Shown: piece after piece, positions 39,988 to 63,125 of the stretch
How positions within the stretch are numbered: the first letter of the stretch is position 1
Layout: every line of letters starts with the position of its first letter
Virus record (IMG/VR): IMGVR_UViG_2974779332_000001
Coordinates: 32,001-96,000 of that record
From: a virus
Taxonomy: Duplodnaviria; Caudoviricetes
Length of the DNA: 64,000 nucleotides
Direction: 5' to 3' (one strand)
The notes under the pieces: generated by a model
Told to the model about the DNA's origin: nothing
The model's database searches: none
The model's input: the letters and a program-made list of their open reading frames with translations, nothing else
Made by a program: the position numbers and the translations under genes

Positions 39988-40152
39988 GGTCCGACTTTAC
40001 GATATCGGCGGAAATAACTGAATCGGAACTCACATAATAACCATGGTAAAAGTGAGGAATGAGGAAGGGAAATATGCGGGAAGCGATGGGTAAAACCTCC
40101 TCGGACCGACAACGGGGTTTCTGGATGCTCTTTCCCAAGAATAAGATGCACC
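39988..40152 (+). ncRNA. putative structured ncRNA (unknown family)
   Basis: Spacer with no credible ORF; GGTCCGA/TCGGACC closing stem, CTCAC/GTGAG, GAGG/CCTC, GGGAAA/TTTCCC. Confidence 0.4.
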
Positions 40153-40154
40153 AT

Positions 40155-40225
40155 ATGTCCTTCGTATAATGGTAGTACAAGAGATTCCAAACCTCTTAGC
40201 GTGGGTTCGATTCCTACAGGACATG
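40155..40225 (+). tRNA. tRNA-Trp(CCA)
   Basis: ATGTCCT/AGGACAT acceptor, loop TTCCAAA. Confidence 0.9.
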
Positions 40226-40232
40226 CTTTGAT

Positions 40233-40410
40233 GAGTCTCGCCTTAGCAGGCATGAACGATAGTGTTCAGCATAAACTATCAAGTAAGCCCAAGAGACAAA
40301 CTGAAAGGGGTAACCCATGCTGAGGGTTCCTGATTAAGGAGTAGGGGATAAGGTCCCAAACAGTGTCAAAACCATTTAAAAAACGCCCGGTATCGAAAAG
40401 GTACCGGGCA
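40233..40410 (+). ncRNA. putative double-pseudoknot ncRNA (unknown family)
   Basis: GTCTC/GAGAC crossed by CCTTAGCA/TGCTGAGG; nested TGAAC/GTTCA + GATAGT/ACTATC pseudoknot; 3' GCCCGGTATC/GGTACCGGGC hairpin. Confidence 0.55.
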
Positions 40411-40430
40411 CAATAATATCCGGAGGAAAT

Positions 40431-40874
40431 ATGGGATACTACACAGACTTCACTCTAAGAGCGGAAGGCCGTGGAGCTGTCTATGACAAGATGATGAGAG
40501 ACAGGTCCAAGATTACATTCTCCTATAGCAACTACGACTTTACCCTCGGAGACTGGCTTGACAGAGACTACTCTGAGAACCTAAAGTGGTATGAATGGGA
40601 GAAGGACATGAAGCAGCTCTCAAAGGAGTGGCCAAACGTCCTATTTATTCTTGATGGAGATGGCGAAGAGACTGGTGACCTCTGGAGAGCATGGTTTCGA
40701 AATGGTGCCATGTACAAGCTTGAGGCAAAGATTGTTTTCGAGACAATCAAGCCAGATTTGGACAAGCATCTTCCATATGACCATGACCTTGACAAGCGTC
40801 TCGGTGAGCAGTACAAGGAAGAACTCAAAGACGAGATTGCCAGATTGCAGAAGCAGCTTGACTCACTAGACTGA
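40431..40874 (+). CDS. hypothetical phage protein
   Basis: 147 aa, GGAGG RBS; MGYYTDF...KWY.W..DM...S..WP...F.L.G.GEE motif seen in phage proteins. Confidence 0.75.
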   Translation: MGYYTDFTLRAEGRGAVYDKMMRDRSKITFSYSNYDFTLGDWLDRDYSENLKWYEWEKDMKQLSKEWPNVLFILDGDGEETGDLWRAWFRNGAMYKLEAKIVFETIKPDLDKHLPYDHDLDKRLGEQYKEELKDEIARLQKQLDSLD

Positions 40875-40885
40875 GAGGTGTAGGG

Positions 40886-41037
40886 TGGCTCTTACAGGCA
40901 CAAACGGACAGTGTTGGTTCCAAAGATGTTCTCGCAAGGCGACAACGACAATTCGGTATTACAACAAGTCAGTTGTCGTCTGTAATGGACACAAGAACCT
41001 TGATGGTGTAGGCTGTCCTTCAAGTAGGCGGAGACCA
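40886..41037 (+). ncRNA. putative long-hairpin/pseudoknot ncRNA (unknown family)
   Basis: Nested GGACAG/CTGTCC, GGTTC/GAACC, TGTTC/GGACA, GACAAC/GTTGTC; crossing TTACAGGC/GTCTGTAA. Confidence 0.55.
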
Positions 41038-41042
41038 AAGAG

Positions 41043-41071
41043 TTGACACTACTCAGAGGGTCTGCTAAGAT
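41043..41071 (+). promoter_or_regulatory. sigma70-type promoter
   Basis: TTGACA-17 bp-TAAGAT upstream of tRNA-Pro. Confidence 0.7.
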
Positions 41072-41099
41072 TAAGTACAACGGCAGGGAAACCTGCTAT

Positions 41100-41171
41100 C
41101 AGGCTCGGGGAAGATGGTAATCCGTTGGCTTTGGAAGCCTAAGACACTCGGTTCGATTCCGAGGGGCCTGA
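41100..41171 (+). tRNA. tRNA-Pro(UGG)
   Basis: CAGGCTC/GGGCCTG acceptor, loop TTTGGAA. Confidence 0.85.
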
Positions 41172-41202
41172 CCGAACATAGGAGGCATCCTATGCGTCTT
41201 GC

Positions 41203-41270
41203 GGCGGTGAATGTAGGAACCACAGGTTATGCAGCCAAGGTGGTCAAGGTTCGACTCCTTGCATCGAGCG
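41203..41270 (+). ncRNA. degenerate tRNA-like element (T arm present, no canonical anticodon arm)
   Basis: CAAGG-TTCGACT-CCTTG T arm; CGGTG/CATCG partial acceptor; ACCAC/GTGGT helix. Confidence 0.45.
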
Positions 41271-41302
41271 TACTGGGGCTGATACGATAACTCAGCATTT
41301 AA

Positions 41303-41377
41303 CGGGATATAGCTCAGCTTGGTCAGAGCGCGCGGTTTGGGACCGTGAAGTCGTCAGTTCGAATCTGACTATCCCGA
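41303..41377 (+). tRNA. tRNA-Pro(UGG)
   Basis: Canonical CGGGATA/TATCCCG, loop TTTGGGA. Confidence 0.95.
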
Positions 41378-41380
41378 CAA

Positions 41381-41529
41381 TTTGGGTCGAAAGAGATACG
41401 GTTATCTAACAATGGATAATAGGTTCGATTCCTATCGGTGGGTATAGCCCGCTGTGTAAGGCCATCCGAGATGCGTGTGGTAGGATGGCATTGGAACTAC
41501 ACGCTCTCCGTTCTCATCACTTATCCAAA
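41381..41529 (+). ncRNA. Y RNA-like 2 (YrlA-type: Ro stem, T arm, closed acceptor-like hairpin, pseudoknot)
   Basis: TTTGGGT/ATCCAAA, CGAAA, GAGA(T)ACGG/CCGTTCTC; ATAGG-TTCGATT-CCTAT; CGGTGGG/CCCGCTG hairpin; GCCATCC/GGATGGC with loop GCGTGTGGT pairing ACTACACGC. Confidence 0.8.
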
Positions 41530-41539: not shown

Positions 41540-42061
41540 ATGACGGTACTTCTAAGAACCATTCATGGTTCACACCTTTACGGTCTCGCTCATGCAGGGT
41601 CTGATAAAGACATCTACGAAGTCATTGCGACTAAGCGTACGAAGCGTAAGCGAAACATCAAGCAGACCATTGCAAATGGTGTTGACAAGACTACAGTTGA
41701 CCTGTCAACATTCATGCATATGGTTGACGAATGCGTACCTCAAGCACTTGAAGCGCTATGGACGCCGGTTGCAGAAATTGATGAAATCAATTCCTTCCGG
41801 ACACAATATCGAGTGAATCGCGCCAAGATGAAGGAAGTATACATTCGAACCGCTCTAAACTTCGCCAAGCATGATGATGTAAAGCGTAAGCGTCACGCTA
41901 TCCGTTTGCTTCTCAATCTTGGAGCAGCTTTGGAATACGGTAAGTTCAATCCCAGACTATCCAATATGGACAAGTTCATTCTCCGCTCATCACTCGGAGA
42001 AACGGGAGCTTATGAGGATGTCTTTCTAGGCGTTCTCGATGAAGTGCAAAAGTGGGTCTGA
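41540..42061 (+). CDS. Pol-beta superfamily nucleotidyltransferase (RlaP/YcgL-like)
   Basis: GSHLYGL...SDKD (GS + DxD) N-terminal motif; K...H..RL helix. Confidence 0.8.
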   Translation: MTVLLRTIHGSHLYGLAHAGSDKDIYEVIATKRTKRKRNIKQTIANGVDKTTVDLSTFMHMVDECVPQALEALWTPVAEIDEINSFRTQYRVNRAKMKEVYIRTALNFAKHDDVKRKRHAIRLLLNLGAALEYGKFNPRLSNMDKFILRSSLGETGAYEDVFLGVLDEVQKWV

Positions 42062-42074: not shown

Positions 42075-42151
42075 TGGGGCGTATACCCTCACTCTGATAA
42101 AGTGTAGAAAGGTTAATCGGTTACATGTGGGTTCAATTCCCACCGTCCCAA
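42075..42151 (+). tRNA. atypical D-armless tRNA-Ile(GAU)
   Basis: TGGGGCG/CGTCCCA acceptor, CACT-CTGATAA-AGTG, T arm GTGGG-TTCAATT-CCCAC; no D stem; D-loop-like TAATCGG lies 3' of the anticodon arm. Confidence 0.65.
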
Positions 42152-49043: not shown

Positions 49044-49155
49044 TGTGGGTCGAAAGAGTAATCGGTTATCTTCCCTTTGAAATGAGAAAATGGTAGGTTC
49101 GAATCCTACGTAGGCCAAGGAGCGGCCAACTCCGATTCTCACCAATATATCCACA
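49044..49155 (+). ncRNA. Y RNA-like 3 (Ro stem, T arm, short hairpin)
   Basis: TGTGGGT/ATCCACA, CGAAA, GAG(T)AATCGG/CCGATTCTC, GGTTATCT, GTAGG-TTCGAAT-CCTAC, GGCC/GGCC; 770 bp upstream of Ro60. Confidence 0.82.
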
Positions 49156-49923: not shown

Positions 49924-51570
49924 ATGTCAAACGCACTTAACAACGCTGCCAAGAGTCTGAACAAGACTCCTCAGTCTCAGAAGGCTAAGGCAAGTCAGGT
50001 CAAGAACAACGCTGGTGGATTCGTCTTCCAGGTTTCTGACCAGGCTCGTCTAGAGCGATTCTTGATTCTGGGTGTCGATGGCGGTACGTATTACGTCAGT
50101 GAGGTCAATCATGCTATGAGCAATGTTGGCTTCCTCAACGAGATGATTGAGCGAGACGAAGCCTCTGTTCTGCGCACCATTGTAGACGTGTCTACAAGTG
50201 GTCGTGCGTACAAGCAGTCTCCTGCCCTGTATGCTCTAGCCTCTGTTATTGCCAACGGCAAGGACAAGCAGGCAGTTAAGGCAGTATTCAATCGTGTCGT
50301 TCGTACAGGTACCCACTTGTACGAGGTCATGAACTACCTCACCTCTCTCAAGATTGGTTGGGGTCGTTCAAAGCGAGAGATTGTTGCTTCTTGGTTCGAC
50401 AAGGATGCTGACAAGCTGGCTTACCAGGCGGTCAAGTACCGTTCTCGTAAGTTTGGAGAGCAGACCTGGACGCTCCGAGACGTAATGCGTCTTTCACACC
50501 CACGAGATGTGAACACATCTGTTGTGGACTTTGTTCTTGGCAAGTCTCATGATTCTATCGATGACCTTCGGGTTATCGAGGGATTCAAGAAGATGCAGAG
50601 GGCTCAGTCTGTTGACGATGTTCACGCTGTTCTTCGTGAGTACGAGATGCTTTCATGGGAGACAATCCCAACTCAGTTCCTCAAGGATGTGAGTGTATGG
50701 AAGCGAATCTTTGCTAACGGACAACTTCGTGGCCAGGCTCTGGTTCGAAACATCACTCGCCTAGCGCGAATTGGTGCTTTCCAGGACATGCGCTTTGCTG
50801 CTGCTTATGCAGGACAGCTAACGAATCAGGAAATGATTGTACAGACTCGTCTGCACCCAATTAACTTCCTGAACGCTACTGTCGTGTATAACGAAGGCCA
50901 GATGAAGACCGTAAAGGACCGATATGGCTGGGACCGCGAGCAGCGAGTAAAGGACTGGACAACTGAGAGTGTTATCGTGGATGCCCTCAACGAGGGATTC
51001 CACAAGGCATTCAAGGCTGTTGAGCCTGCTGGAAAGCGAACGATGCTAGCCATCGACGTTTCAGGTTCTATGAGTGCAAAGGCTAACGGTCTCGACCTTA
51101 GCTGTGCTCAGGTTTCTGGCGCAATGGCAATGACCATCGCTCGTACCGAGCCTGCTCACATCATCCGTGGATTCACGTGTGATGGTTACAGCTACAGGAA
51201 CAGTGGTCTTACCAACCTAGGCATTTCTGCAAACACCGACCTTGCTACGGTAATGCGTAAGGTGCAGCGAAGTAACTTTGGTGGCACAGACTGTGCGCTT
51301 CCTATGGTTTGGGCCAAGGACAACAAGGTTGAGGTTGACACCTTTGTGGTTATCACTGATAACGAGACATGGGCTGGCAACATTCATCCTTTCCAGGCCC
51401 TCAAGGACTACAGGAAGGCTACGGGCATTGACGCTCGTTTGGCTGTTCTTGGTGTTGCGGCAACGCCGTTTACCATTGCAGACCCAAGCGACTCAGGCAT
51501 GATGGATTTCGTTGGCTTTGATAGCAACGCACCTCGTGCGCTCGCAGATTTCTCTGCTGGTCGTATCTGA
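49924..51570 (+). CDS. rsr: Ro60 / TROVE-vWA RNA-binding protein
   Basis: NNAGGF.F, RLERFLILG..GGTYY, YQAVKYR.R, D.MRLSHP, RLHP, DVSGSM, GGTDCALP, ITDNETWAG, GFD. Confidence 0.95.
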   Translation: MSNALNNAAKSLNKTPQSQKAKASQVKNNAGGFVFQVSDQARLERFLILGVDGGTYYVSEVNHAMSNVGFLNEMIERDEASVLRTIVDVSTSGRAYKQSPALYALASVIANGKDKQAVKAVFNRVVRTGTHLYEVMNYLTSLKIGWGRSKREIVASWFDKDADKLAYQAVKYRSRKFGEQTWTLRDVMRLSHPRDVNTSVVDFVLGKSHDSIDDLRVIEGFKKMQRAQSVDDVHAVLREYEMLSWETIPTQFLKDVSVWKRIFANGQLRGQALVRNITRLARIGAFQDMRFAAAYAGQLTNQEMIVQTRLHPINFLNATVVYNEGQMKTVKDRYGWDREQRVKDWTTESVIVDALNEGFHKAFKAVEPAGKRTMLAIDVSGSMSAKANGLDLSCAQVSGAMAMTIARTEPAHIIRGFTCDGYSYRNSGLTNLGISANTDLATVMRKVQRSNFGGTDCALPMVWAKDNKVEVDTFVVITDNETWAGNIHPFQALKDYRKATGIDARLAVLGVAATPFTIADPSDSGMMDFVGFDSNAPRALADFSAGRI

Positions 51571-54762: not shown

Positions 54763-54814
54763 CGTTGGCTTTGTTCGCGACATAGCCAAATGCATATAGG
54801 GTCGCTCCCTATAT

Positions 54815-54941
54815 GAGGAACATAGTTTAAATGGGAGAACGGCGAAATGCGCTGTCGAACCAGAGGTGCTGCTGAGCTAAAGGCGGGTCCTCCTAGTAGA
54901 TAACAGAGTAGTCAGTGTCGGTTCGAATCCGACTGTTCCGC
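54815..54941 (+). ncRNA. tRNA body with a large structured insert replacing the anticodon arm
   Basis: GGAACA/TGTTCC acceptor, TAGTTTAAATGGGAGAAC D arm, GTCGG-TTCGAAT-CCGAC T arm; about 75 nt between D and T arms containing CTGT-CGAAC-CAGAGG...CCTC...ACAG. Confidence 0.65.
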
Positions 54942-54942
54942 T

Positions 54943-55082
54943 AGCCTGCGGTAGATACGGGAATGTAAGACGGCAAGGGAGTGTACAATCCTAAACCGCA
55001 TTGTCTCAACGGCCTTGCAAGGGGTATCTAGCTACAAGGTGAGAGCGTCTTGGTTGTTCCGGCTCATAACAGGAACCTCCCC
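54943..55082 (+). ncRNA. putative multi-pseudoknot ncRNA
   Basis: TGCGGT/ACCGCA, TAGATAC/GTATCTA, AAGACG/CGTCTT, GCAAGG/CCTTGC, GTTCC/GGAAC. Confidence 0.5.
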
Positions 55083-55084
55083 AA

Positions 55085-55404: not shown

Positions 55405-55413
55405 TGAAAATGT

Positions 55414-56025: not shown

Positions 56026-56032
56026 GGACTAT

Positions 56033-56104
56033 GGGCGATTAGTGTTAATGGGAGCACGTCAGTTTTGCACACTGATAGAGGGGGTTCGAGTCCCCCATTG
56101 TCCA
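56033..56104 (+). tRNA. tRNA-Ala(UGC)
   Basis: GGGCGAT/ATTGTCC with G3-U70, loop TTTGCAC. Confidence 0.92.
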
Positions 56105-56130
56105 CAACTCCTGCGCAGGGAGGTGCTAGA

Positions 56131-56205
56131 ATGAGTGTGGAACGTGCAATCGTAATCGTGATTCTAGTTGTACTAGCTGTATTCCTAATCACGACGCTTC
56201 TATAA
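56131..56205 (+). CDS. 24-aa single-TM peptide
   Basis: GGGAGGT RBS; MSVERAIVIVILVVLAVFLITTLL. Confidence 0.6.
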   Translation: MSVERAIVIVILVVLAVFLITTLL

Positions 56206-56270
56206 AAAAGAACTGGCTGGCCGATACGAACCCCATCGTATCCTTGCCCAAGGGTTAGGGACCAGCACTA

Positions 56271-56344
56271 GATTCAGTCGCAGAATTGGTACTGCAAAAG
56301 ACTCTTAATCTTTGAGGATGTGGGTTCGAGTCCCACCTGAATCA
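56271..56344 (+). tRNA. tRNA-Lys(CUU)
   Basis: GATTCAG/CTGAATC, loop CTCTTAA. Confidence 0.9.
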
Positions 56345-56401
56345 CGTTGGGTTAGGGGACGCACACCTGGCGAGGTGCCCGCCCAGCTCCACTTAAAACC
56401 C

Positions 56402-56429
56402 ACCCCAGTCCTCGTGGCTGGGGTTTTTT
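56402..56429 (+). terminator. intrinsic terminator
   Basis: ACCCCAGTC...GGCTGGGGT hairpin plus TTTTT. Confidence 0.75.
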
Positions 56430-56446
56430 ATGCTACAATAACTAGT

Positions 56447-56998
56447 ATGACTACACCAAAGAAGTACACTCCAAGGCCAGGCGATATTGGGCTCACCAGA
56501 ATTGGTGGCCTGACGGGCGTCCTAGTAGGTCTGGGGCAATTCATCATTCGAGACGCAAGCAGATACACTCATGCGTTTGTTGTTTTGGACAACGGGGAAG
56601 TTGTAGAAGCCATGCCAGGTGGAGCAATCATCAGCCCACTGGACAAGTATGCTGGAACTACCAAGTATGGAAGTCCACTGGCAGTCTATCTAGACATCAA
56701 GTTGACACCAGAACAGCGAGACGCTATCGTAAGAGAAGCCCGGCAGCTAGAAGGAACGCCATACAGCTTCCTTGACTATGTAGCCTTGGCTATGGAAAGA
56801 TTCGGTTTGAAGTGGAAGTGGGTAGAGAACAGAGTCACTTCCTCTAAGCACATGATATGCTCACAGCTAGCTGACGAAGCATACAATCGTGCTGGCGTCC
56901 ATCTCTTTGAAGATGGTAGACTATCCCAGAAGGTTACTCCAGGAGATTTGACCTATGTCGGATTTGACCAACGAGAAGATGAAGTGCTGGGGCTGTAA
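56447..56998 (+). CDS. permuted papain-like NlpC/P60 amidase (YiiX/YebB-like)
   Basis: PGD...THA...VEA (His first), G.PY, ICSQL...AY (Cys later), TPGDL. Confidence 0.8.
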   Translation: MTTPKKYTPRPGDIGLTRIGGLTGVLVGLGQFIIRDASRYTHAFVVLDNGEVVEAMPGGAIISPLDKYAGTTKYGSPLAVYLDIKLTPEQRDAIVREARQLEGTPYSFLDYVALAMERFGLKWKWVENRVTSSKHMICSQLADEAYNRAGVHLFEDGRLSQKVTPGDLTYVGFDQREDEVLGL

Positions 56999-57176
56999 GG
57001 CTGACAAGCCCAAGGACCAGTTCGACAAGAATCCAGCCTTGTGCAGAACATGCGTAGGTGGTACAGTAGTACCAAGAAGCACAAAGCGAGGACGCTCAAG
57101 AGGAAGCGGTGGCGGATTCGCTGATGCAGTTGGTGATTTTGTAGAAGGAATCATCGACGCAATCACAGGCAATTAG
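56978..57176 (+). CDS. small Zn-finger protein
   Basis: KCWGCK..KP...F.....CRTC. Confidence 0.55.
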
Positions 57177-57197
57177 TAAGACGCCCGTAAGGGCTAT

Positions 57198-57273
57198 TCC
57201 GGTGGGGCTACTATTGGCAGTAGCGACGAGCTGTTAACTCGTTTCCCTGTAGGTTCGATTCCTGCCTCCGGAG
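57198..57273 (+). tRNA. tRNA-Asn(GUU)
   Basis: TCCGGTG/CTCCGGA, loop CTGTTAA. Confidence 0.88.
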
Positions 57274-57274
57274 C

Positions 57275-57670
57275 TGGCCGCCAAAGCTTAGGGAAATAGC
57301 TACCCTAGGCACGGATAAACCGGATGGTAGGTCATAGTTTTCTAGATAAGCTATGACTGAGGACAAGGTGGAAACCCGGAGACAAACTGGGGCACGGCCA
57401 ACCATTTATAGATTTGCTAAGGTGCGTAGATTCACAGGCTAGAATGGGTTTTACTGATTTTCAAATCCAGGAGGCGGTGATGAAGAAGGGTTTAGCGGCT
57501 CTACTTACCCAAGAGGAATCAGTTGAGGGTAATCGCGCTAAGTAAAAGAGCGGCTGTTGGGACCGCTTCGAGCATGAGACCCGGCTCAAACGGGGAGTGC
57601 TGCATCCCTTCCAAAGGGTAAGATGGATATCCTATTGATAATAGTGGGTTGGAAATGCCCTCTCCATCAC
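57275..57670 (+). ncRNA. putative ~400-nt large structured RNA between two tRNA-Asn genes
   Basis: No + strand ORF in the ORF track; more than 10 helices including long-range GCCGCC/GGCGGT, ACTGATT/AATCAGT, TTCCAA/TTGGAA. Confidence 0.65.
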
Positions 57671-57672
57671 AT

Positions 57673-57745
57673 TGGCCTATAGTTCAATTGGTAGAGCAGA
57701 TGGTTGTTACCCATCAAGTTGCTGGTTCGAATCCAGCTAGGTCAG
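57673..57745 (+). tRNA. tRNA-Asn(GUU)
   Basis: TGGCCTA/TAGGTCA, loop TTGTTAC. Confidence 0.92.
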
Positions 57746-57776
57746 CGCAAAGCGATTACATCAATCTGCTTACGTC

Positions 57777-57801
57777 AAGTCACCCTTAATGGGTGACTTT
57801 T
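57777..57801 (+). terminator. intrinsic terminator
   Basis: AAGTCACCC-TTAAT-GGGTGACTT-TT. Confidence 0.75.
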
Positions 57802-57825
57802 GGCGTTTTATGGTACCATCGTTTT

Positions 57826-59130
57826 ATGTCAATCGAGATAATTAAGGACGTCACTGTTGAAACTGTGGAAGTTCCCACAGTTGAAGAGTTCGACGCATTG
57901 AAGCAAAAGGTCGATGCTATTCCAACGAGTAGCACATCTGTAAAGGAGCGTCCGTGGGAAGTAGTTGTTACTGAGGGATTCAATGATGCTGCCATAAAGG
58001 CTGGACTGGACAAGGTTCTTTCTGGTCGTAATGGTAACGCAGTTCAGAAGACACTTATTCTTCCACCAGGCGACTTCCATCTAAAGAATCCCCTGCTGAC
58101 TCAGGCAAAAGACAATGGTTCTCAAATTGAAGGACTTAGCATACGGGGGCAGGGCAAGCGAGTAACCAAGGTATTTGTCGATTCAAGCCCGGCAGCGAGT
58201 AGCGACCCTTGGGCCAATAACTTCATCACAGCTCATGGTCTAAGATACTTTACTCTAGAAGACTTCACAGTAGTATCAGGTGGAGAGAACAACAACTTCG
58301 CCTATCTATGGAGTCTAGCCACAGGGCCATACAACCAGGAGTGGAACGTTCAATCCCTTGAATTCCAGGGAGCCTGGAATAGAGTATTTGGGTTTGATGG
58401 AGATGCTACAGCTAACCTCAATTCAGAGTTTGTTATTGATAGAATCTCAACAGCAACAAACTCAAGATTTAAGGACGCGTTCATGCGTCTTGGTGGAATT
58501 GGACAGACTACAAACCAGCAAAACCAGTTTCTCAACTACTGGATTACTAACAGCCAGTTTGTACTGACATCAGGAACAGTCTTCCGATTTGACCGAGGTG
58601 GAAGCGTTCGTATCGCACGTGGAAGCTGGAGTGCAGCCAACAAGACTGATGGACCTATCACGTTCCTCAGCATGCCTGTCAGCGATTTCAACAACAGGTC
58701 AGCCACTCAGGTGTCCGTCAGAGATATCCGCTTTGAGCCAAAGGCTGCCAACCATCGTGTCATCGACTGTGCTTGGGGCAACGGAAGCATCACCTTCGAT
58801 GACTGTGCTGACCTGGGAAGCTTGCAGAACGACGCAGCCATGGAGTATGCTACTCACAGATACGTCGGACAGTCTCCTTGGGGATTTGGTGTCATGCCAA
58901 CCGTGAGGTATCGCAACTGTCAGCTTGTAGGGTATCATCTGTATGAAGGCCCGGAAGTGAAGAGAGGCAACATTGTCTATGATGGTTGCTACTTCTACCG
59001 TGGTGGGTCTGGACAGAAGGCTCCAGCAGTTGCTACGCTAGGACCGAAGACGGCACTGAGCTGGACATCAGGAGCACCAAAGTTCAGATTCAGTGAATGT
59101 GAGAATGTAGACAATGCAACTAACGTGTGA
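57826..59130 (+). CDS. right-handed beta-helix protein (pectate lyase-like / putative depolymerase)
   Basis: D.AI.AG.D, LILPPG.F.L, L.I.G.G...T N-terminal cap; beta-rich repeats. Confidence 0.7.
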   Translation: MSIEIIKDVTVETVEVPTVEEFDALKQKVDAIPTSSTSVKERPWEVVVTEGFNDAAIKAGLDKVLSGRNGNAVQKTLILPPGDFHLKNPLLTQAKDNGSQIEGLSIRGQGKRVTKVFVDSSPAASSDPWANNFITAHGLRYFTLEDFTVVSGGENNNFAYLWSLATGPYNQEWNVQSLEFQGAWNRVFGFDGDATANLNSEFVIDRISTATNSRFKDAFMRLGGIGQTTNQQNQFLNYWITNSQFVLTSGTVFRFDRGGSVRIARGSWSAANKTDGPITFLSMPVSDFNNRSATQVSVRDIRFEPKAANHRVIDCAWGNGSITFDDCADLGSLQNDAAMEYATHRYVGQSPWGFGVMPTVRYRNCQLVGYHLYEGPEVKRGNIVYDGCYFYRGGSGQKAPAVATLGPKTALSWTSGAPKFRFSECENVDNATNV

Positions 59131-59161
59131 TACCCTTAAAAGACTATTTTAAGGAGTCACC

Positions 59162-59326
59162 GTGAGATTTGCTAGTGGTTTGAGGCCCGGCAGTAAGACG
59201 AAGTATGGTACTGTCGTAGCAGCCCAACGTACCCTTGATGGCAAGAAGATACAGTTGACACTGTCAGGCCGTCCTGGTAACGTAGTAATCAGCAAGTACG
59301 CAATCGTCCGAACACTTTGGAGATGA
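59162..59326 (+). CDS. small basic SH3-like protein
   Basis: AAGGAG RBS, GTG start; ASGLRPG....GTVV. Confidence 0.55.
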   Translation: MRFASGLRPGSKTKYGTVVAAQRTLDGKKIQLTLSGRPGNVVISKYAIVRTLWR

Positions 59327-59328
59327 AG

Positions 59329-59730
59329 ATGGCTGTTAATCTTGGCGATGACGCTGCCAAGGAAGCCGAAGAGGACATCAAGGAAGACCTTGATGATGGT
59401 CGCCCTATCAAGGAGATTGTCAAGGACGCTGCCAAGGCATATGCTAAGGCCAAGGGTCGTCAGGCTTTCTTCGCTGCTGTGAAGCTAATGAAGGCTAAGC
59501 AGAAGGAGCAGGGCAAGAGCAACACATCTGGAGTAAAGGCAATGCAGAAGAAGGCTTCTCAGCTTCGTGTCGGTGACATCACCTCTGATGGTGAGGTTCT
59601 GACTGTTGGCAGGTCTCCTGTTGACAAGAAGCAGTATGAGGTTGTTTTCATGGGTTCCTCTGGCTCCGACCGTCAAATTGTTGACCAGAACACCAAGTAC
59701 GAAGTTGTTGAGCGTCGAAGCATTCGCTGA
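59329..59730 (+). CDS. hypothetical protein with SH3-like C-terminus
   Basis: ASQLRVGD....EVLTV, similar to the preceding ORF. Confidence 0.6.
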   Translation: MAVNLGDDAAKEAEEDIKEDLDDGRPIKEIVKDAAKAYAKAKGRQAFFAAVKLMKAKQKEQGKSNTSGVKAMQKKASQLRVGDITSDGEVLTVGRSPVDKKQYEVVFMGSSGSDRQIVDQNTKYEVVERRSIR

Positions 59731-59749
59731 ACAACGGCCTTCGGGCCAC

Positions 59750-59821
59750 GTCCCTATAGTTTAGAGGATAGAACGGTTGCCTCCTAAGCAACAGACGCAG
59801 GTTCGATTCCTGCTGGGGACA
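59750..59821 (+). tRNA. tRNA-Arg(CCU)
   Basis: GTCCCTA/TGGGGAC, loop CTCCTAA. Confidence 0.92.
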
Positions 59822-59822
59822 C

Positions 59823-60071
59823 ATGGCAAATGATGATAAGGTCTATCTGGTATGGACCTACACCGAAAGCACCGACCCTGACACTGAGGGTCAAATTGAA
59901 TACCTTGGCGTGGCAATGTCAGAAAAGCGTGCCAAGGAAATTGCCGACAGTTACGAGCCCGGCAGTGAGTGGACAAAGGAAGAGGATTACTACTGGACCT
60001 ATAAGTCTGACTCACGGTGGGGTCATAACGCAACTCACGAGGTCTGCTACGAACCGCTTGACGTACTGTGA
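59823..60071 (+). CDS. hypothetical protein
   Basis: KVYLV...LGV..S...A motif. Confidence 0.55.
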   Translation: MANDDKVYLVWTYTESTDPDTEGQIEYLGVAMSEKRAKEIADSYEPGSEWTKEEDYYWTYKSDSRWGHNATHEVCYEPLDVL

Positions 60072-60086
60072 GCGACGTAGTAGAGT
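60058..60086 (+). promoter_or_regulatory. sigma70-type promoter
   Basis: TTGACG-17 bp-TAGAGT. Confidence 0.6.
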
Positions 60087-60140
60087 AGAACCTAGAACGA
60101 CACCTCCTAAGTGTCTTGGGTACACAAACTAGGAGGAAAA

Positions 60141-60284
60141 ATGATTTACATCGTAACTGACGGAGTCTGCTGCTGCGGCATCGAGATTCTAGGAGTCTTC
60201 ACCACAAAGGAAAAGGCTCAGAAGTTCATTGACGGCGACGAGAAATACAAGTACGCTGACATTGAAGAACACGAAGCAGAATAA
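60141..60284 (+). CDS. small hypothetical protein
   Basis: AGGAGG RBS; IYIV...ILGVFTT.EKA, paralogous to the previous ORF. Confidence 0.65.
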   Translation: MIYIVTDGVCCCGIEILGVFTTKEKAQKFIDGDEKYKYADIEEHEAE

Positions 60285-60299
60285 GCCCGAAAGGGTTTT

Positions 60300-60372
60300 G
60301 GGGTTGTAGCTCAACTGGAAGAGCATCTGCATGGCATGCAGAAGGTTGTGGGTTCGAGTCCCATCTTCTCCA
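60300..60372 (+). tRNA. tRNA-Ala(GGC)
   Basis: GGGGTTG/CTTCTCC (G3-U70, two U-U mismatches), loop ATGGCAT. Confidence 0.88.
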
Positions 60373-60382
60373 CAAGTTTTTA

Positions 60383-60540
60383 TCAGTTTTCAACGGAACG
60401 AAAACTGAACGGTGCTCAGCTCTAGCAGGCTGAATTCGGTAGCAAGGTATAGCCCGTAGACCCCTTGCAGCGTACAGACCACATGTGCTAGCATGGTACG
60501 TATTGGGGGAGGGCGAGGTTGGTCGCTTCAAACTCCCATC
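60383..60540 (+). ncRNA. putative multi-hairpin/pseudoknot ncRNA
   Basis: TCAGTTTTC/GAAAACTGA, TCAGC/GCTGA with loop CTAGCA pairing TGCTAG, GCAAGG/CCTTGC, CGTAC/GTACG, GGGAG/CTCCC. Confidence 0.5.
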
Positions 60541-60585
60541 ATATATATAATAGATAAAAGCCCTAGGGTACCCTAGGGCAACCAA

Positions 60586-60658
60586 GCTCCGGTAGCTCAG
60601 TTGGTAGAGCAGGCGGCTCTTAACCGTCGTGTCGCTGGTTCAAGTCCAGTTCGGAGTA
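60586..60658 (+). tRNA. tRNA-Lys(CUU)
   Basis: GCTCCGG/TCGGAGT, loop CTCTTAA. Confidence 0.93.
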
Positions 60659-60661
60659 CAA

Positions 60662-60772
60662 AGGATGATTGCAAGCATCCTCAATCACATTGGGGTTCGA
60701 CTCCCAGTGGTAAACAATGTGGTGTAATCGAGAAGAAAAGGCGAGGTCGTTGGACCTGCTGTCTAGCTTCTC
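60662..60772 (+). ncRNA. putative ncRNA with pseudoknot and T-loop
   Basis: AGGATG/CATCCT + TGATTG/CAATCA; CATTGGG-GTTCGACT-CCCAGTG; GAGAAG/CTTCTC. Confidence 0.45.
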
Positions 60773-60778
60773 CCTTAT

Positions 60779-60853
60779 GGTCCAGTCGCACAGTCTGGTA
60801 GTGCAATTGACTTTTAATCTTTGTGGACGTGGGTTCGAATCCCACCTGGACCA
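60779..60853 (+). tRNA. tRNA-Lys(UUU), mismatched anticodon stem
   Basis: GGTCCAG/CTGGACC, ATTGA-CTTTTAA-TCTTT. Confidence 0.85.
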
Positions 60854-60854
60854 C

Positions 60855-61007
60855 ATGAAACAGTGGAGTGCAGGCGAAAAGGTAATTCGTAACAACAACA
60901 CTGATGCTGGTGAAGTCATCAGCCAGAATGGAAAGCAAGTAACTGTCAAGCTTGACAGTGGCGGTACAAAAGTTCTTGGGGCCAATGACCTCAAGCGTAG
61001 GCGCTAA
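60855..61007 (+). CDS. small SH3-like protein
   Basis: W.AGEKV......GEV.....VTVKLD.G....L...DL. Confidence 0.6.
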   Translation: MKQWSAGEKVIRNNNTDAGEVISQNGKQVTVKLDSGGTKVLGANDLKRRR

Positions 61008-61016
61008 GGCGCTTTT

Positions 61017-61089
61017 CCCTCTGTGGCGCAACGGATAGCGCAGCGGTCTTCGAAGTCGTTGGTTGGGGGTTCGAATCCCTCCAGAGGGG
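61017..61089 (+). tRNA. tRNA-Arg(UCG)
   Basis: CCCTCTG/CAGAGGG, loop CTTCGAA. Confidence 0.9.
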
Positions 61090-61298
61090 CCTTGACATAG
61101 CCAAGATGGCATGTCAGAATGTTAACAGGACGCAGCGGACAAGGCTTAGGCGGATGAAACAAGCCGGTGGGATGCGAGTGGCTGACCAGTCCTGTTGACA
61201 CAAGCGGGGAACGTTGAGTATGCTAACCTCATAGAGGAACGACGACTAACAAGTTCCCCGCTTTTCATTAAACAAATCTAGTAACTAGGAGTTACAAC

Positions 61299-62108
61299 AT
61301 GGGTTTCTTCGGCAACAAGTCCAAGCCTGCTTTCGTTCGGTCTCGGACTCTTACGCCTAAGAAGACTGTTCGACTGACGTACTTCTCCAACAGTGGTCCG
61401 GCTGTCAGTCTCCAGAAGATTTCCAATGTGAGTCTTCGCAAGGAGGTTGAGGACACTGCTAAGGTCATCAAGAAGGGTGGAGCCCTCGGTGTCAAGTGGG
61501 CCGTTCTCGGTGCCGTTGACACTTCTGGTTCAATGGGTGGCCTTTACCAGAGTGGTGCTGTTCAGACGGTAACTGACCGTGCGCTAGCTTTCACGCTTTC
61601 AATCGATGAGGATGGGTTCATTCCCTTTGCCACATTCGGTGAGCGCTTCAAGTGGCGCAAGGAAGTTGGTCAGGCTGACTACCAGAACCTCGTTCGTACT
61701 GAGGGCTGGGACCGAGGTCTTGAGTATGGCACTGTCCTTGCCAAGACTGTTCGAGAGATTACCGCTCTAGCCAAGGGTGCCGACACTCCTGTCTATGCGT
61801 TTATCATCACTGATGGTGAGCCTACGGACGGTAAGGAGAATGTCTTCAAGGCCATCCAGGAGGCTTCTCAGTACCCCATCTTCTTCAAGTTCCTTGCGGT
61901 TGGTGGAAACCGAGGTGCCATTGCATTCCTCAACGAGCTTGACGACATGGAGCGCACTCGTCCTGGTTCACGTCTGTTTGACAACGTGGACACGGCTGAG
62001 ATTCCTGACCCCAAGCGCGTGTCAACTGAGCAGTTCGCTGCTATGATGACTGAGGAGATGGCGAACACCATCCAGGGCATGAAGGATGCTGGTCTAGTCA
62101 CTGGTTGA
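61299..62108 (+). CDS. vWA domain protein (TerF-associated vWA-like)
   Basis: DTSGSM..LY..G.VQ, D.DG, ITDG.P, YPIFF.F..VG, L.ELDD, R.FDN. Confidence 0.85.
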   Translation: MGFFGNKSKPAFVRSRTLTPKKTVRLTYFSNSGPAVSLQKISNVSLRKEVEDTAKVIKKGGALGVKWAVLGAVDTSGSMGGLYQSGAVQTVTDRALAFTLSIDEDGFIPFATFGERFKWRKEVGQADYQNLVRTEGWDRGLEYGTVLAKTVREITALAKGADTPVYAFIITDGEPTDGKENVFKAIQEASQYPIFFKFLAVGGNRGAIAFLNELDDMERTRPGSRLFDNVDTAEIPDPKRVSTEQFAAMMTEEMANTIQGMKDAGLVTG

Positions 62109-62133
62109 CAGACACGCTCTGATGATGTAGAGT
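62105..62133 (+). promoter_or_regulatory. sigma70-type promoter
   Basis: TTGACA-17 bp-TAGAGT. Confidence 0.7.
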
Positions 62134-62144
62134 AGTAAACATCA

Positions 62145-62337
62145 GGGAAACCCGCTCAAACTTGGCCGAAGGCCCGGTGGCGTTCAGGGAAGCGGGGATG
62201 TAGGATAGAGTGAACGTACTCCTACAACAGCAAAGACTAAAATCCCAGTCTGAGGCTGATTATGATAGGGTAGTGCTAAAGGTGAAGAGGTGGAGGCGAA
62301 AGCCAGAGAAGCTTAGGACTCACCCCAAAGCACTATA
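62145..62337 (+). ncRNA. putative ~190-nt structured RNA at the 5' end of the tRNA-Met transcript
   Basis: CCCGCT/AGCGGG, TGTAGGA/TCCTACA, loop-loop CGTTCA/TGAACG, AGACT/AGTCT, TAGTGCT/AGCACTA, GGTGA/TCACC, GGC-GAAA-GCC. Confidence 0.6.
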
Positions 62338-62339
62338 AT

Positions 62340-62411
62340 GGCAGTGTGGTGAAACGGCTATCACGTTCCCCTCATAAGGGAAAATCGAAGGTTCGATTCC
62401 TTCCATTGCTA
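62340..62411 (+). tRNA. tRNA-Met(CAU)
   Basis: GGCAGTG/CATTGCT, loop CTCATAA. Confidence 0.9.
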
Positions 62412-62413
62412 CT

Positions 62414-62485
62414 TGCAGGTTAGTGAAACGGTATCACGTAGGGCTCATAATCCTAAATTCCTGTTCGAATCAGGGCCTGCCCCCA
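62414..62485 (+). tRNA. tRNA-Met(CAU), initiator-like
   Basis: 1-72 mismatch, GGG in anticodon stem, encoded CCA. Confidence 0.75.
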
Positions 62486-62520
62486 CGTAGTACAAAAATA
62501 AAAACAACAAGGAGAATCAA

Positions 62521-62652
62521 ATGCCTGGTCCGATGTCTACCCCCAACTCCCCGAAGCGTCCGACTCTCGCTGAGAAGGTTCAGCGCGGAATGGACCTGAT
62601 GAAGGGTAAGCTTCCGAAGTCTGGGAAGACTGCGAAGGTCCACGGCCGGTAA
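62521..62652 (+). CDS. small basic peptide
   Basis: AAGGAG RBS, 43 aa. Confidence 0.55.
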   Translation: MPGPMSTPNSPKRPTLAEKVQRGMDLMKGKLPKSGKTAKVHGR

Positions 62653-62667
62653 CCTCAAGGAGGTTTA

Positions 62668-62847
62668 GTGGCTGACAAGTATAGCGTTAAGGAACATCTT
62701 GAGACGGTCTATGATAAGACCATATTGCAAGACAGAATTAACGCTCTCCAAGAGATAGTTGACAAGCGCCGTAGAGGTGGTAAGATTATCTCAGAGCACA
62801 AGCAAACCGGTAGAGTTCACCAATGGTTGCTCTACTACGTAAAATAA
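62668..62847 (+). CDS. small hypothetical protein
   Basis: AAGGAGG RBS, GTG start, 59 aa. Confidence 0.6.
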   Translation: MADKYSVKEHLETVYDKTILQDRINALQEIVDKRRRGGKIISEHKQTGRVHQWLLYYVK

Positions 62848-62862
62848 GCCCTTCGGGGTTCT

Positions 62863-62934
62863 GCATGTAAGCCAGGGACAAGCTAGGCGGGTCTGTAAAA
62901 CCCTACCTCGGAGGTTCGAATCCTCCTACATGCA
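62863..62934 (+). tRNA. tRNA-Tyr(GUA), short variable arm
   Basis: GCATGTA/TACATGC, GGGT-CTGTAAA-ACCC. Confidence 0.8.
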
Positions 62935-62937
62935 CTT

Positions 62938-63019
62938 GTAGGTGATAGGCCAATGGATGGCTCAAACGCATAAGCGTGGATACCCTGAAAAAGCACGGTT
63001 CGATTCCGGCATCACCCAC
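62938..63019 (+). ncRNA. aberrant tRNA-like element
   Basis: GGTGAT/ATCACC closing stem, GCCA/TGGC, ACGC-ATAA-GCGT, CGG-TTCGATT-CCG. Confidence 0.45.
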
Positions 63020-63125
63020 ATTAGACCGGGTTACATCCTACCTGGAAGCTTACAGCTTGACATTCTGTCTAAGGGCCCTTAGAGTTAACACAGAACGTCC
63101 GGCCGAGGAGCAAAGGATGTCCTAT

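What the first reader, a model, noticed from the sequence alone, without database searches (positions are those of the whole stretch)
39988..63120. tRNA-punctuated repertoire of pseudoknotted ncRNAs
Seen: almost every non-coding spacer in the tRNA region that exceeds about 60 nt folds into several 5-9 bp helices, many mutually crossing. Examples lie at 39988, 40233, 40886, 54257, 54425, 54943, 56213, 56347, 57275, 60383, 60662, 61092, 62145 and 63020. They usually begin within a few nt of a tRNA 3' end or stop just before the next tRNA. They share no obvious sequence with one another. Known: RNase P and 3'-trimming nucleases excise tRNAs and release intervening RNA. Inference: the tRNA arrays double as a processing scaffold that releases a dozen or more distinct structured RNAs (ribozymes, nuclease-resistant decoys, protein sponges or Ro60 clients) that standard annotation ignores.
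Basis: partly seen in the sequence, partly recalled or inferred. Interest (0 to 1): 0.85.

Follow-up and report, generated by a model that had tools for sequence, protein, structure and literature searches.

The report
Hidden structured RNAs between phage tRNAs

Summary
The window is a cluster-BE Streptomyces phage (133,090 bp genome). Helices of 5 bp or more, and crossing helix pairs, are as frequent in dinucleotide shuffles as in the spacers. Only 5 of 14 spacers fold better than shuffles at z of -3.5 or lower.

Comparison with relatives still rescues part of the idea. Four spacers show about three times the compensatory changes of coding controls and match no Rfam family. They are 54764-55084, 57420-57612, 60374-60585 and 60660-60778.

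Each carries the YrlA hallmark GNCGAAN(0-1)G...YUAY and a covarying closing stem. Each lies 3-5 nt from a tRNA, and a Ro60 gene sits at 49924-51570. The same model finds five such RNAs in tandem beside Ro60 in a cluster-BK phage that was not used to build it.

The other examples are small ORFs, promoter-like sites, terminator-like hairpins or tRNA remnants. Transcription, processing and Ro60 binding are inferred, not shown. This scan has noted YrlA-type RNAs before on other DNA. Verdict: partly supported, a new variant of known kinds.

The parts
39716..39744 (+). Sigma-70-like promoter match (TTGACA, 17 nt, TAAAGT, with TG). It would place a start at about 39751, the base of the Y-A stem.
   Evidence: consensus scan only. 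The -10 hexamer is conserved in relatives in the alignment.
39752..39833 (+). Y-A: a short Y-RNA-like gene ending 5 nt before tRNA-Gly(tcc) at 39839. It has GUCGAACG, GGUUAUC and the closing stem GUGGGU/AUCCAC. It has no T-arm.
   Evidence: Covariation. Model R1 scores 58.2 bits (this is a training sequence).
41382..41528 (+). Y-B: a Y-RNA-like gene starting 3 nt after tRNA-Pro (end 41378) and ending 11 nt before the RlaP-type nucleotidyltransferase CDS. It has a T-arm-like hairpin AUAGG-UUCGAUU-CCUAU and further hairpins.
   Evidence: 66.6 bits. The Rfam YrlA model gives no match there.
41540..42061 (+). Nucleotidyltransferase of the RlaP family (RNA repair pathway, DNA polymerase beta family).
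   Evidence: Pfam PF10127, 25.2 bits against a cut-off of 23.
49045..49154 (+). Y-D: a Y-RNA-like gene starting 3 nt after tRNA-Asp (end 49041) and 770 nt upstream of Ro60. It has a T-arm-like hairpin GUAGG-UUCGAAU-CCUAC and a second hairpin.
   Evidence: 84.6 bits. The Rfam tRNA model scores only 14 bits and YrlA gives no match. Its Paradiddles equivalent is annotated as a 70-nt tRNA-Ser.
49924..51570 (+). Ro60 orthologue.
   Evidence: Pfam TROVE 1.8e-32 and vWA_Ro60 1.6e-59.
54764..55084 (+). Composite structured RNA between tRNA-Leu and tRNA-Gly. It holds two covarying hairpins, a tRNA-like domain (54816-54941: acceptor, D-like and T arms, with an insert of about 45-60 nt that is itself a covarying helix) and a multi-helix domain of about 105 nt at about 54944-55046.
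   Evidence: 96.2% of cells paired, 34 of 89 pairs compensated, covariation 0.385 against 0.188 shuffled. Found in 87 Streptomyces phage records.
57420..57612 (+). Structured RNA of about 190 nt upstream of the second tRNA-Asn.
   Evidence: 98.4% paired, 17 of 53 pairs compensated, covariation 0.350 against 0.170. Found in 86 phage records. It holds a tiny ORF of inconsistent length whose residues change with the compensatory substitutions.
60374..60585 (+). Structured RNA between tRNA-Ala(ggc) and tRNA-Lys(ctt), core about 60381-60556. One hairpin has an invariant loop CUAGCAG. Further on lie an invariant GCAAGG/CCUUGC stem and a covarying stem around the invariant CAUGUGCUAGCAUG. A 3' hairpin at 60560-60579 ends 6 nt before the tRNA.
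   Evidence: 16 sequences including two BK-type phages, 97.7% paired, 8 of 22 pairs compensated, covariation 0.364 against 0.123. No Rfam match. Found in 90 phage records.
60660..60778 (+). Structured RNA filling the gap between two tRNA-Lys genes. It has a covarying hairpin, a long stem enclosing a T-arm-like GGG-UUCGACU-CCC, and a 3' domain.
   Evidence: 97.2% paired, 10 of 36 pairs compensated, covariation 0.324 against 0.124.
61092..61298 (+). Conserved leader upstream of the vWA-TerF-like CDS (61299-62108). It holds a palindrome over a TTGACA promoter match (61092-61120), a conserved core closed by the long stem GUUAACAGGAC/GUCCUGUUGAC, a second promoter match (61195-61224), and the hairpin GCGGGGAAC...GUUCCCCGC followed by UUUU. 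That hairpin is present in Samistivirus relatives only.
   Evidence: z -6.2; 94-96% identity. Covariation is only at the level of the coding control (6 of 48 pairs). No Rfam match.
62109..62339 (+). Leader between a promoter match (62105-62133) and the two tRNA-Met genes. Its structure is borderline.
   Evidence: 9 of 28 pairs compensated, but the RNAalifold covariation term is +0.45.
40885..41046 (+). Small protein gene (53 aa, Cys/His-rich), followed by a promoter match at 41043-41071.
   Evidence: tblastn finds 62-94% amino-acid identity in 7 of 7 relatives. It is annotated as a CDS in NootNoot, Warpy, Bartholomune and BoomerJR.
60855..61007 (+). Small protein gene (50 aa) directly after tRNA-Lys(ttt), followed by a G+C hairpin and a T-run.
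   Evidence: 74% amino-acid identity in three relatives, 35% in Wofford. Weak SH3-like Pfam hit.
56402..56430 (+). Intrinsic-terminator-like hairpin with T6, after tRNA-Lys and before the CDS that starts at 56447.
62863..63197 (+). tRNA-like genes or remnants that ARAGORN missed at its default setting: 62863-62935 (Tyr-like), 62940-63019 (degenerate) and 63127-63197 (His-like, Rfam tRNA 40 bits). A promoter match lies at 63057-63085.

Best explanation
The 24-kb tRNA region of this BE-type Streptomyces phage is a mosaic of short units, all on the + strand. The gaps between tRNAs are not uniformly structured RNAs. They hold promoter-like sites, terminator-like or cap hairpins, small protein genes and tRNA remnants. 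Embedded among these are real, conserved, unannotated RNA genes.

(1) Three are Y-RNA-like RNAs, the putative partners of the phage's own Ro60. Each has a closing stem made by its 5' and 3' ends, the 5' motif GNCGAAN(0-1)G that is thought to contact Ro60, and then YUAY. Two of the three also carry a tRNA-like T-arm.

(2) At least four are unclassified structured RNAs of about 120-320 nt. One of them is built around a tRNA-like domain with a long helical insert.

Each of these RNAs lies within a few nucleotides of a tRNA. The most likely route of synthesis is therefore as part of a tRNA polycistron. RNase P, cutting at the 5' end of the downstream tRNA, and the 3'-trailer nuclease, cutting behind the upstream tRNA, would then define the ends. 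Y-A would instead start at its own promoter.

The Y RNAs probably act with phage Ro60 and the neighbouring RlaP-type nucleotidyltransferase in surveillance or repair of structured RNA during infection.

Shown here: sequence conservation, compensatory base changes, motifs, tight spacing to tRNAs, the Ro60 and RlaP genes, and clustering of the same RNA model beside Ro60 in other phages. Inferred: transcription, processing, Ro60 binding and function.
For: Y-like RNAs. The motif GGGTCGAA-N(4-12)-GGTTATC occurs 3 times in the window against 0 in 100 shuffles. It matches the YrlA hallmarks GNCGAAN(0-1)G and YUAY described by Chen et al. 2014 (PMC4201824, sections 5 and 6 read). On 30 sequences the closing stem is 99.4% paired, and its pairs take the forms GC/AU/UA/CG, UA/CG/AU and UA/CG. 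The whole core scores covariation 0.427 against 0.234 shuffled and 0.224 or less when slid. A fourth paralogue in relatives, behind tRNA-Ile, shares the same ends and matches Rfam YrlA at 34.8 bits, E 2e-6. Model R1 finds exactly 3 copies in the window and in the whole 133,090-bp genome; the next best hit scores 12.9 bits. In Blueeyedbeauty, which was not used to build the model, R1 finds 5 tandem copies at 65769-67143, just upstream of its TROVE gene at 68143-69006. In two unrelated viral records the copies also sit beside TROVE. Ro60 and RlaP are confirmed by Pfam. The gaps to the neighbouring tRNAs are 5, 3 and 3 nt.

Other RNAs, given as compensated pairs of predicted pairs and the RNAalifold covariation term: 54764-55084, 34 of 89, -10.0. 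57420-57612, 17 of 53, -6.4. 60374-60585, 19 of 46, -4.3 on 7 phages and 8 of 22 on 16. 60660-60778, 10 of 36, -3.9. Coding controls run through the same tools gave 5 of 82 at +4.9 and 9 of 81 at +0.4. Sixteen scripted coding controls gave 1-9 compensated pairs of 42-62, about the same as their column shuffles.

Promoter-like sites number 27 against 9.1 +/- 4.1 expected in 53400-63600, and the best ones are all on the + strand.
Against: There is no expression or end-mapping data; the only runs that could be laid were contigs, probably DNA. The Rfam YrlA model does not match Y-B or Y-D even when searched alone, and around Y-A the only YrlA row in the 24-kb search lies on the adjacent tRNAs at 23 bits. 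Y-A and Y-B lie 10 and 8.4 kb from Ro60, outside the 4-kb criterion of Chen et al. One BK-type phage has 5 R1 hits but no TROVE match. MFE z-scores of Y-B (-1.7), Y-D (-1.3), 54764-55084 (-0.2) and 57425-57612 (-0.4) are unremarkable, so the case rests on comparison alone. Most alignments hold only 6 sequences from 2 genera, and the structures were derived from the same alignments. The shuffle test also gave 0 of 500 for a coding control, so only effect sizes discriminate. The structured spacers could act in cis on tRNA maturation rather than as released RNAs.
Confidence: 0.6

Rival explanations
1. The conserved structures are cis-acting parts of tRNA and mRNA transcripts: processing guides, 3'-end 'caps' that protect upstream RNA after RNase P cleavage, attenuators or leaders. 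On this reading they are not released to act as independent RNAs.
For: Many sit flush with tRNAs. Stable hairpins lie 4-6 nt before tRNA-Lys, at 60560-60579 and 56216-56266. 61092-61298 and 62109-62339 look like promoter-plus-leader units.
Against: Multi-helix domains of 120-320 nt, with invariant loops kept across two phage subfamilies, are more than a cap needs. The Y-like RNAs belong to a class known to act in trans with Ro60.
Confidence: 0.25
2. The spacers are evolutionary debris (decayed or duplicated tRNAs, remnants of indels) plus DNA-level signals. The apparent structure is inherited from tRNA ancestry, and none of it works as RNA.
For: Helix density is at chance level. T-arm-like motifs lie in spacers at 41249, 54399, 54921, 60695 and 62998. 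54257-54598 is rearranged relative to relatives. Spacer content varies widely: the Lys(ttt)-to-Arg gap is 2-3 nt in Warpy and EGole, 162 nt here and 334 nt in Paradiddles.
Against: Debris does not keep 96-98% base pairing through compensatory changes across genera. Several spacers are better conserved than the roughly 84% regional average.
Confidence: 0.08
3. One reading: almost every spacer is one of a dozen or more distinct pseudoknotted RNAs (ribozymes, decoys, sponges) released by tRNA processing.
For: Seven to nine conserved structured elements exist. One possible loop-loop pairing (CUAGCA with UGCUAG, both invariant in 16 of 16 sequences) is seen in 60374-60585.
Against: Crossing helices are at chance level. 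At least 8 of the 14 examples are coding, promoter or terminator signals, tRNA debris, or unsupported. No ribozyme family matched at E up to 5.
Confidence: 0.07

Closest known systems
YrlA / bacterial Y RNAs bound by Ro60 (Rsr); Rfam RF02553; Chen et al. 2014, PMC4201824 (abstract, sections 5 and 6 and matched passages read)
   Same: 5' GNCGAAN(0-1)G motif followed by YUAY. A stem closed by the 5' and 3' ends. A tRNA-like T-arm in two of the three. The same strand as a Ro60 gene. Several different copies per genome. Already reported in 22 phages.
   Different: The Rfam model does not match the three window copies. None shows the full T-AS-D permuted tRNA domain, which the paralogue behind tRNA-Ile in relatives does show. 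Two copies lie 8-10 kb from Ro60. All three are wedged 3-5 nt from tRNA genes inside a tRNA array instead of next to rsr. The list of 22 phages is in a supplement that I could not see, so I cannot say whether any Streptomyces phage is on it.
GOLLD and ROOL RNAs of phages and prophages (Rfam; Nature 2025, PMC12286853, matched passages read)
   Same: Structured non-coding RNAs of unknown function, encoded in phages 'often near tRNA islands'. tRNAs sometimes lie inside GOLLD.
   Different: Those RNAs are about 580 to over 800 nt long and form cages. The elements here are 120-320 nt and gave no Rfam match to either family.
tRNA-linked co-transcripts matured by RNase P and 3' nucleases (established knowledge of bacterial tRNA operons; recalled, not read here)
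   Same: An RNA that abuts a tRNA gets its end from the tRNA-processing cut.
   Different: No processing data exist for this phage. The idea is inferred from the spacing alone.

Membership tests
YrlA-type Y RNA (Chen et al. 2014; Rfam RF02553) | GNCGAAN(0-1)G motif near the 5' end | tested here: met
   GUCGAACG in Y-A and GUCGAAAG in Y-B and Y-D.
YrlA-type Y RNA (Chen et al. 2014; Rfam RF02553) | Conserved YUAY after the 5' strand of the stem | tested here: met
   GGUUAUC (UUAU) in all three copies. TTATC is invariant in 30 of 30 aligned sequences.
YrlA-type Y RNA (Chen et al. 2014; Rfam RF02553) | Nearly invariant T stem-loop resembling the tRNA T-arm | tested here: inconclusive
   Present in Y-B and Y-D (GGUUCGAUUCC and GGUUCGAAUCC). 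The stem covaries between genera (GUAGG/CCUAC against CACGG/CCGUG). Absent from Y-A.
YrlA-type Y RNA (Chen et al. 2014; Rfam RF02553) | D stem-loop and AS stem-loop after the T-arm (permuted tRNA-like domain) | tested here: inconclusive
   Y-D has only one further 4-bp hairpin. Y-B has extra hairpins that I could not assign. Y-A has none. The relatives' copy behind tRNA-Ile has all three, but that copy is absent from the window.
YrlA-type Y RNA (Chen et al. 2014; Rfam RF02553) | Score at or above the Rfam gathering threshold (69 bits) | tested here: not met
   No YrlA match at E up to 10 for Y-B or Y-D when searched alone. The only YrlA row in the 24-kb search, 23.1 bits, lies on tRNA-Gly/Gln. 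The relatives' copy behind tRNA-Ile scores 34.8 bits.
YrlA-type Y RNA (Chen et al. 2014; Rfam RF02553) | Within 4 kb of the Ro60 gene, on the same strand | tested here: inconclusive
   Y-D meets it (770 nt upstream, same strand). Y-B and Y-A are on the same strand but 8.4 and 10.1 kb away.
YrlA-type Y RNA (Chen et al. 2014; Rfam RF02553) | Binds Ro60/Rsr | not testable with these tools
   Only co-occurrence could be examined. R1 hits lie beside TROVE genes in 3 of 4 other viral records.
tRNA (Rfam RF00005), for the domain 54816-54941 | Cloverleaf with a 7-nt anticodon loop and a normal length | tested here: not met
   The Rfam tRNA model scores 31.3 bits, but the match is 126 nt long. ARAGORN accepts it only at a lowered threshold, as an 'intron'-bearing tRNA with a poor anticodon stem. 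The insert is a covarying helix.
Any Rfam 15 family, for 54764-55084, 57420-57612, 60374-60585, 60660-60778 and 61092-61298 | Match to a curated covariance model | tested here: not met
   Apart from the tRNA-like domain, nothing appeared at E up to 5 in the 24-kb search. Searched alone, 60374-60585 gave only weak hits on its 3' hairpin and one 11-bit row on its core. 61110-61298 gave none.

The most novel reading that the evidence does not exclude
BE and BK Streptomyces phages carry a whole RNA toolkit threaded through their tRNA arrays. It would comprise several divergent Y RNAs for a phage Ro60-RlaP RNA-repair module, plus at least four new families of structured RNA. These include a tRNA mimic with a helical insert in place of a normal anticodon arm, and an RNA with two invariant, mutually complementary loops. 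All would be released by the host's tRNA-processing enzymes and would act as decoys or cofactors against host attack on tRNA and other RNA.
Probability: 0.3. Interest if true: 0.8.

Novelty: new variant of a known kind. Interest (0 to 1): 0.6.

Why it matters
Cluster BE phages are described as carrying 43-48 tRNAs and one tmRNA (PMC5764925; a term search of it found no mention of Ro, Y RNA or non-coding RNA). Their annotations leave these intervals blank, or call them hypothetical proteins or odd tRNAs.

Seven or more conserved RNA genes hidden there would have three consequences. They would correct about 90 public annotations. They would give Ro60/Y-RNA biology a tractable phage system in which Y RNAs are physically tied to tRNA processing. 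They would also supply several candidate new RNA families, with good covariation, for structural and functional study.

The case also carries a caution: counting helices by eye says nothing, and only comparison with relatives separated signal from noise.

Tried and rejected
- Expression data. No listed holder is on record as RNA. The four runs laid were contigs, 'probably DNA', from mixed relatives, and say nothing about expression or ends.
- Exact 15-mer scan of bacterial genomes for the invariant core of 60374-60585. It returned 120 rows and stopped at its limit. After filtering for a second motif, only one unrelated hit was left. The pattern was too short, so this is not evidence of absence.
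- The IMG/VR scan with the Y motif gave mostly chance hits. Of 123 matches, 23 passed a crude filter, and about 15 of those looked like real Y-like RNAs by eye.
- ARAGORN at a 70% threshold gave over 100 spurious tRNAs and was not used beyond the T-loop check.
- Full column-shuffle z-scores for alignments were inflated in gappy alignments, so I relied on compensated-pair counts against coding controls.
- The 0-of-500 shuffle result of the count of structure pairs also occurs for a coding control. It is not used as proof.
- A tmRNA reading of 60374-60585 was considered because a BK record lists a tmRNA near a match. It was rejected: that tmRNA lies elsewhere in the record, and in that phage the element lies between tRNA-Cys and tRNA-Asn.
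- Riboswitch reading of 61092-61298. The architecture fits (a conserved core with a terminator hairpin in one genus only), but there is no Rfam match and covariation is only at control level. It is left as a lead.
- Literature. Searches found no paper on Y RNAs or spacer RNAs in Streptomyces phages. Supplementary Table S2 of Chen et al. 2014, which lists the 22 phages, could not be seen.

Full report
**What the window is.** The region matches cluster-BE Streptomyces phages (Samistivirus and Karimacvirus) at about 84% identity over about 60% of its length. The window is bases 32001-96000 of a 133,090-bp virus record with direct terminal repeats. ARAGORN finds 29 tRNAs between 39839 and 63467, all on the + strand. 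Rfam adds tRNA-like hits at 42075-42151, 55161-55235 and 63127-63197, and at 54816-54941, a 126-nt match. A Ro60 orthologue (TROVE plus vWA_Ro60) lies at 49924-51570. An RlaP-type RNA-repair nucleotidyltransferase lies at 41540-42061.

**Checking the observation.** I defined 16 spacers and counted every maximal stem of 5 bp or more.
- Stems of 5 bp or more: 2326 observed against 2260 +/- 49 in dinucleotide shuffles.
- Stems of 6 bp or more: 829 against 811 +/- 35.
- Crossing helix pairs: 120,187 against 123,402 +/- 9,477.
- None of the three is above chance.

MFE z-scores were -3.5 or lower in 5 of 14 spacers and between +0.1 and -1.9 in the other nine. Forty coding segments of the same window averaged -1.30, with a minimum of -4.16. 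The strong scores come from single long hairpins, a palindrome and a small ORF with a hairpin. So 'several 5-9 bp helices, many crossing' is true of any sequence of this length and composition.

**What fills the gaps that are not structured RNAs.**
- Small protein genes: 40885-41046 (53 aa, conserved in 7 of 7 relatives and annotated in four of them), 60855-61007 (50 aa), 62521-62652 and 62668-62847.
- A 24-codon hydrophobic ORF with a GGGAGG ribosome-binding site at 56131-56205.
- The CDS behind tRNA-Lys starts at ATG 56447, preceded by a terminator-like hairpin with T6 at 56402-56430.
- Promoter-like sites number 27 against 9.1 +/- 4.1 expected in 53400-63600. Those with a perfect TTGACA on the + strand start at 39716, 41043, 44225, 48780, 53463, 55921, 61092, 61195, 62105, 62759 and 63057. 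These are consensus matches only.
- T-arm-like motifs outside the 29 tRNAs mark tRNA-like genes or remnants at 41249, 42131, 54399, 55215, 62914 and 62998.
- 54257-54598 is rearranged relative to relatives.
- Spacer content is very fluid between relatives.

**Y-RNA-like genes.** Aligned together, they share the blocks GUGGGUCGAA...GGUUAUCU...CUCCGAyUCUCA...AUCCAC.
- The 5' motif occurs three times in the window and never in 100 shuffles. The third copy is at 41384.
- Chen et al. 2014 define YrlA RNAs by GNCGAAN(0-1)G near the 5' end, a YUAY, and a tRNA-like T/AS/D domain, within 4 kb of Ro60. They reported them in 254 bacteria and 22 phages.
- All three copies have the first two features. Y-B and Y-D have a T-arm.
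- Folding gives the same architecture in every relative.
- On 30 sequences (BE paralogues plus unrelated viral contigs) the closing stem is 99.4% paired, with three pairs showing full compensatory variety. The core covariation score is 0.427, against 0.234 shuffled and 0.224 or less when slid.
- Relatives carry a fourth paralogue behind tRNA-Ile, with a canonical T-AS-D domain, that matches Rfam YrlA at 34.8 bits. The window lacks it.
- A covariance model of the core (R1) finds exactly three copies in the window and in the whole genome.
- In phage Blueeyedbeauty, which was not used to build the model, R1 finds five tandem copies immediately upstream of its TROVE gene. In two unrelated viral records the copies also flank TROVE. 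One BK-type phage has five copies but no TROVE match.
- The Rfam YrlA model itself does not match the window copies. I therefore call them Y-RNA-like, not members of the Rfam family.
- Y-A ends 5 nt before tRNA-Gly and follows a promoter match whose -10 hexamer ends 7 nt before its stem. Y-B and Y-D each start 3 nt after a tRNA.
- Paradiddles annotates its Y-D as a 70-nt tRNA-Ser.

**Unclassified structured RNAs.** I aligned each spacer with its syntenic counterparts from Samistivirus and Karimacvirus. I then compared the results with coding controls run through the same tools. Those controls gave 5 of 82 and 9 of 81 compensated pairs, covariation terms of +4.9 and +0.4, 91.4% pairing and a covariation score of 0.197. 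Sixteen scripted controls gave 1-9 compensated pairs of 42-62. Four spacers stand well above this.
- 54764-55084: 34 of 89 pairs, 96.2% paired, score 0.385, term -10.0.
- 57420-57612: 17 of 53 pairs, 98.4% paired, score 0.350, term -6.4.
- 60374-60585: 19 of 46 pairs on 7 phages; 8 of 22 pairs, 97.7% paired, score 0.364 on 16 sequences, including two BK-type phages in which the stems are rewritten but the loops are invariant.
- 60660-60778: 10 of 36 pairs, 97.2% paired, score 0.324, term -3.9.

The shuffle test of the count of structure pairs gave 0 of 500 for the coding control too. I therefore rely on effect size, which is about 2-fold in score and 3-fold in the share of compensated pairs.

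54764-55084 contains a tRNA-like domain whose anticodon region is replaced by a covarying helix. 60374-60585 has two invariant segments, CUAGCA and UGCUAG, that could pair. This is the one candidate pseudoknot or kissing contact, and it cannot be tested by covariation. 57420-57612 holds a tiny ORF, but its length varies (21, 22 or 46 codons) and the compensatory changes alter its residues.

None of these four has an Rfam match apart from the tRNA-like domain. They occur in 86-90 phage records, all Streptomyces phages, mostly unannotated.

**Borderline elements.** 61092-61298 is 94-96% conserved and has a palindrome over a promoter match, a long closing stem and, in Samistivirus only, a terminator-like hairpin before the vWA-TerF-like gene. 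That is a leader or riboswitch-like layout, but its covariation is only at control level. 62109-62339 is a promoter match plus a leader before tRNA-Met, with 9 of 28 compensated pairs but a covariation term of +0.45.

Unsupported or unresolved: 39987-40154 (z +0.1; 1 of 16 pairs), 40227-40430 (one strong hairpin; 5 of 45 pairs, equal to the shuffle maximum), 41174-41302, 54257-54598, 56106-56270, 57275-57419 and 62936-63126.

**Mechanism.** The conserved RNAs sit within a few nucleotides of tRNAs, in one orientation, downstream of promoter-like sites. The simplest reading is co-transcription with the tRNAs and release by RNase P and the 3'-trailer nucleases. This is inference from spacing, resting on established knowledge of tRNA operon maturation. 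For the Y-like RNAs, the known role of the class (tethering and gating Ro60) and the adjacent Ro60 and RlaP genes suggest a phage RNA surveillance or repair module. For the other four RNAs I can offer only candidate roles, such as tRNA mimicry or decoy. The main rival is that they act in cis on tRNA or mRNA maturation.

**Comparison and novelty.** Y RNAs beside Ro60, including in phages, have been known since 2014, and this scan has noted them repeatedly in other genomes, one of them inside a phage tRNA array. Structured phage RNAs near tRNA islands are known for GOLLD and ROOL. I did not find three things in print (searches; term search of the BE1 paper). They are Y-like RNAs dispersed into a tRNA array flush with tRNAs, their presence in BE/BK Streptomyces phages, and the four unclassified RNA families. 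The supplement listing the 22 phages of Chen et al. was not visible. I rate this a new variant of known kinds, of moderate to good interest.

Noticed in passing
L144 record (MH536814.1, Blueeyedbeauty) 65769-67143 and 68143-69006: This BK-cluster phage has five Y-like RNAs in tandem directly upstream of its Ro60 gene, and a sixth at 95933-96023. In the BE window the copies are scattered through the tRNA array instead.
   Followed up: partly
Virus record behind L140 (125,726 bp) 65811-67021: Five matches to the Y-like model but no TROVE/Ro60 match in a record rated complete. Either Ro60 has diverged beyond the profile or these Y-like RNAs work without it.
   Followed up: no
L001 9596-9665 (Paradiddles): The feature annotated as a 70-nt tRNA-Ser(tga) is the counterpart of Y-D, so it is a mis-annotated Y-like RNA.
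   Followed up: yes
L006 9796-9859 and L007 10516-10579 (Karimacvirus): A second, short (64-nt) Y-like hairpin RNA with a GGGCCGAAG...GAUUAUC motif follows Y-D and ends in a U-run. It recalls the short YrlB-type partner. It is absent from the window.
   Followed up: partly
window 42075-42151, 55161-55235, 62863-62935, 63127-63197: tRNA-like genes that ARAGORN missed at its default setting. Relatives annotate tRNA-Leu(UUA), tRNA-Arg(tct), tRNA-Tyr and a second tRNA-His at the matching places.
   Followed up: partly
window 61092-61117: A palindrome (TGACAT AGCCA ... TGGC ATGTCA) overlaps the -35 match directly behind tRNA-Arg and is nearly invariant in six phages. It could be an operator for a DNA-binding protein.
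   Followed up: no
window 56131-56205: A 24-codon, strongly hydrophobic ORF with a good ribosome-binding site between tRNA-Ala and tRNA-Lys. Warpy annotates a 72-nt CDS at the matching place.
   Followed up: partly
window 40385-40409: A 10-bp G+C hairpin between an A-run and the ribosome-binding site of the CDS at 40431. Read on the minus strand it looks like an intrinsic terminator, although no minus-strand gene is evident.
   Followed up: no
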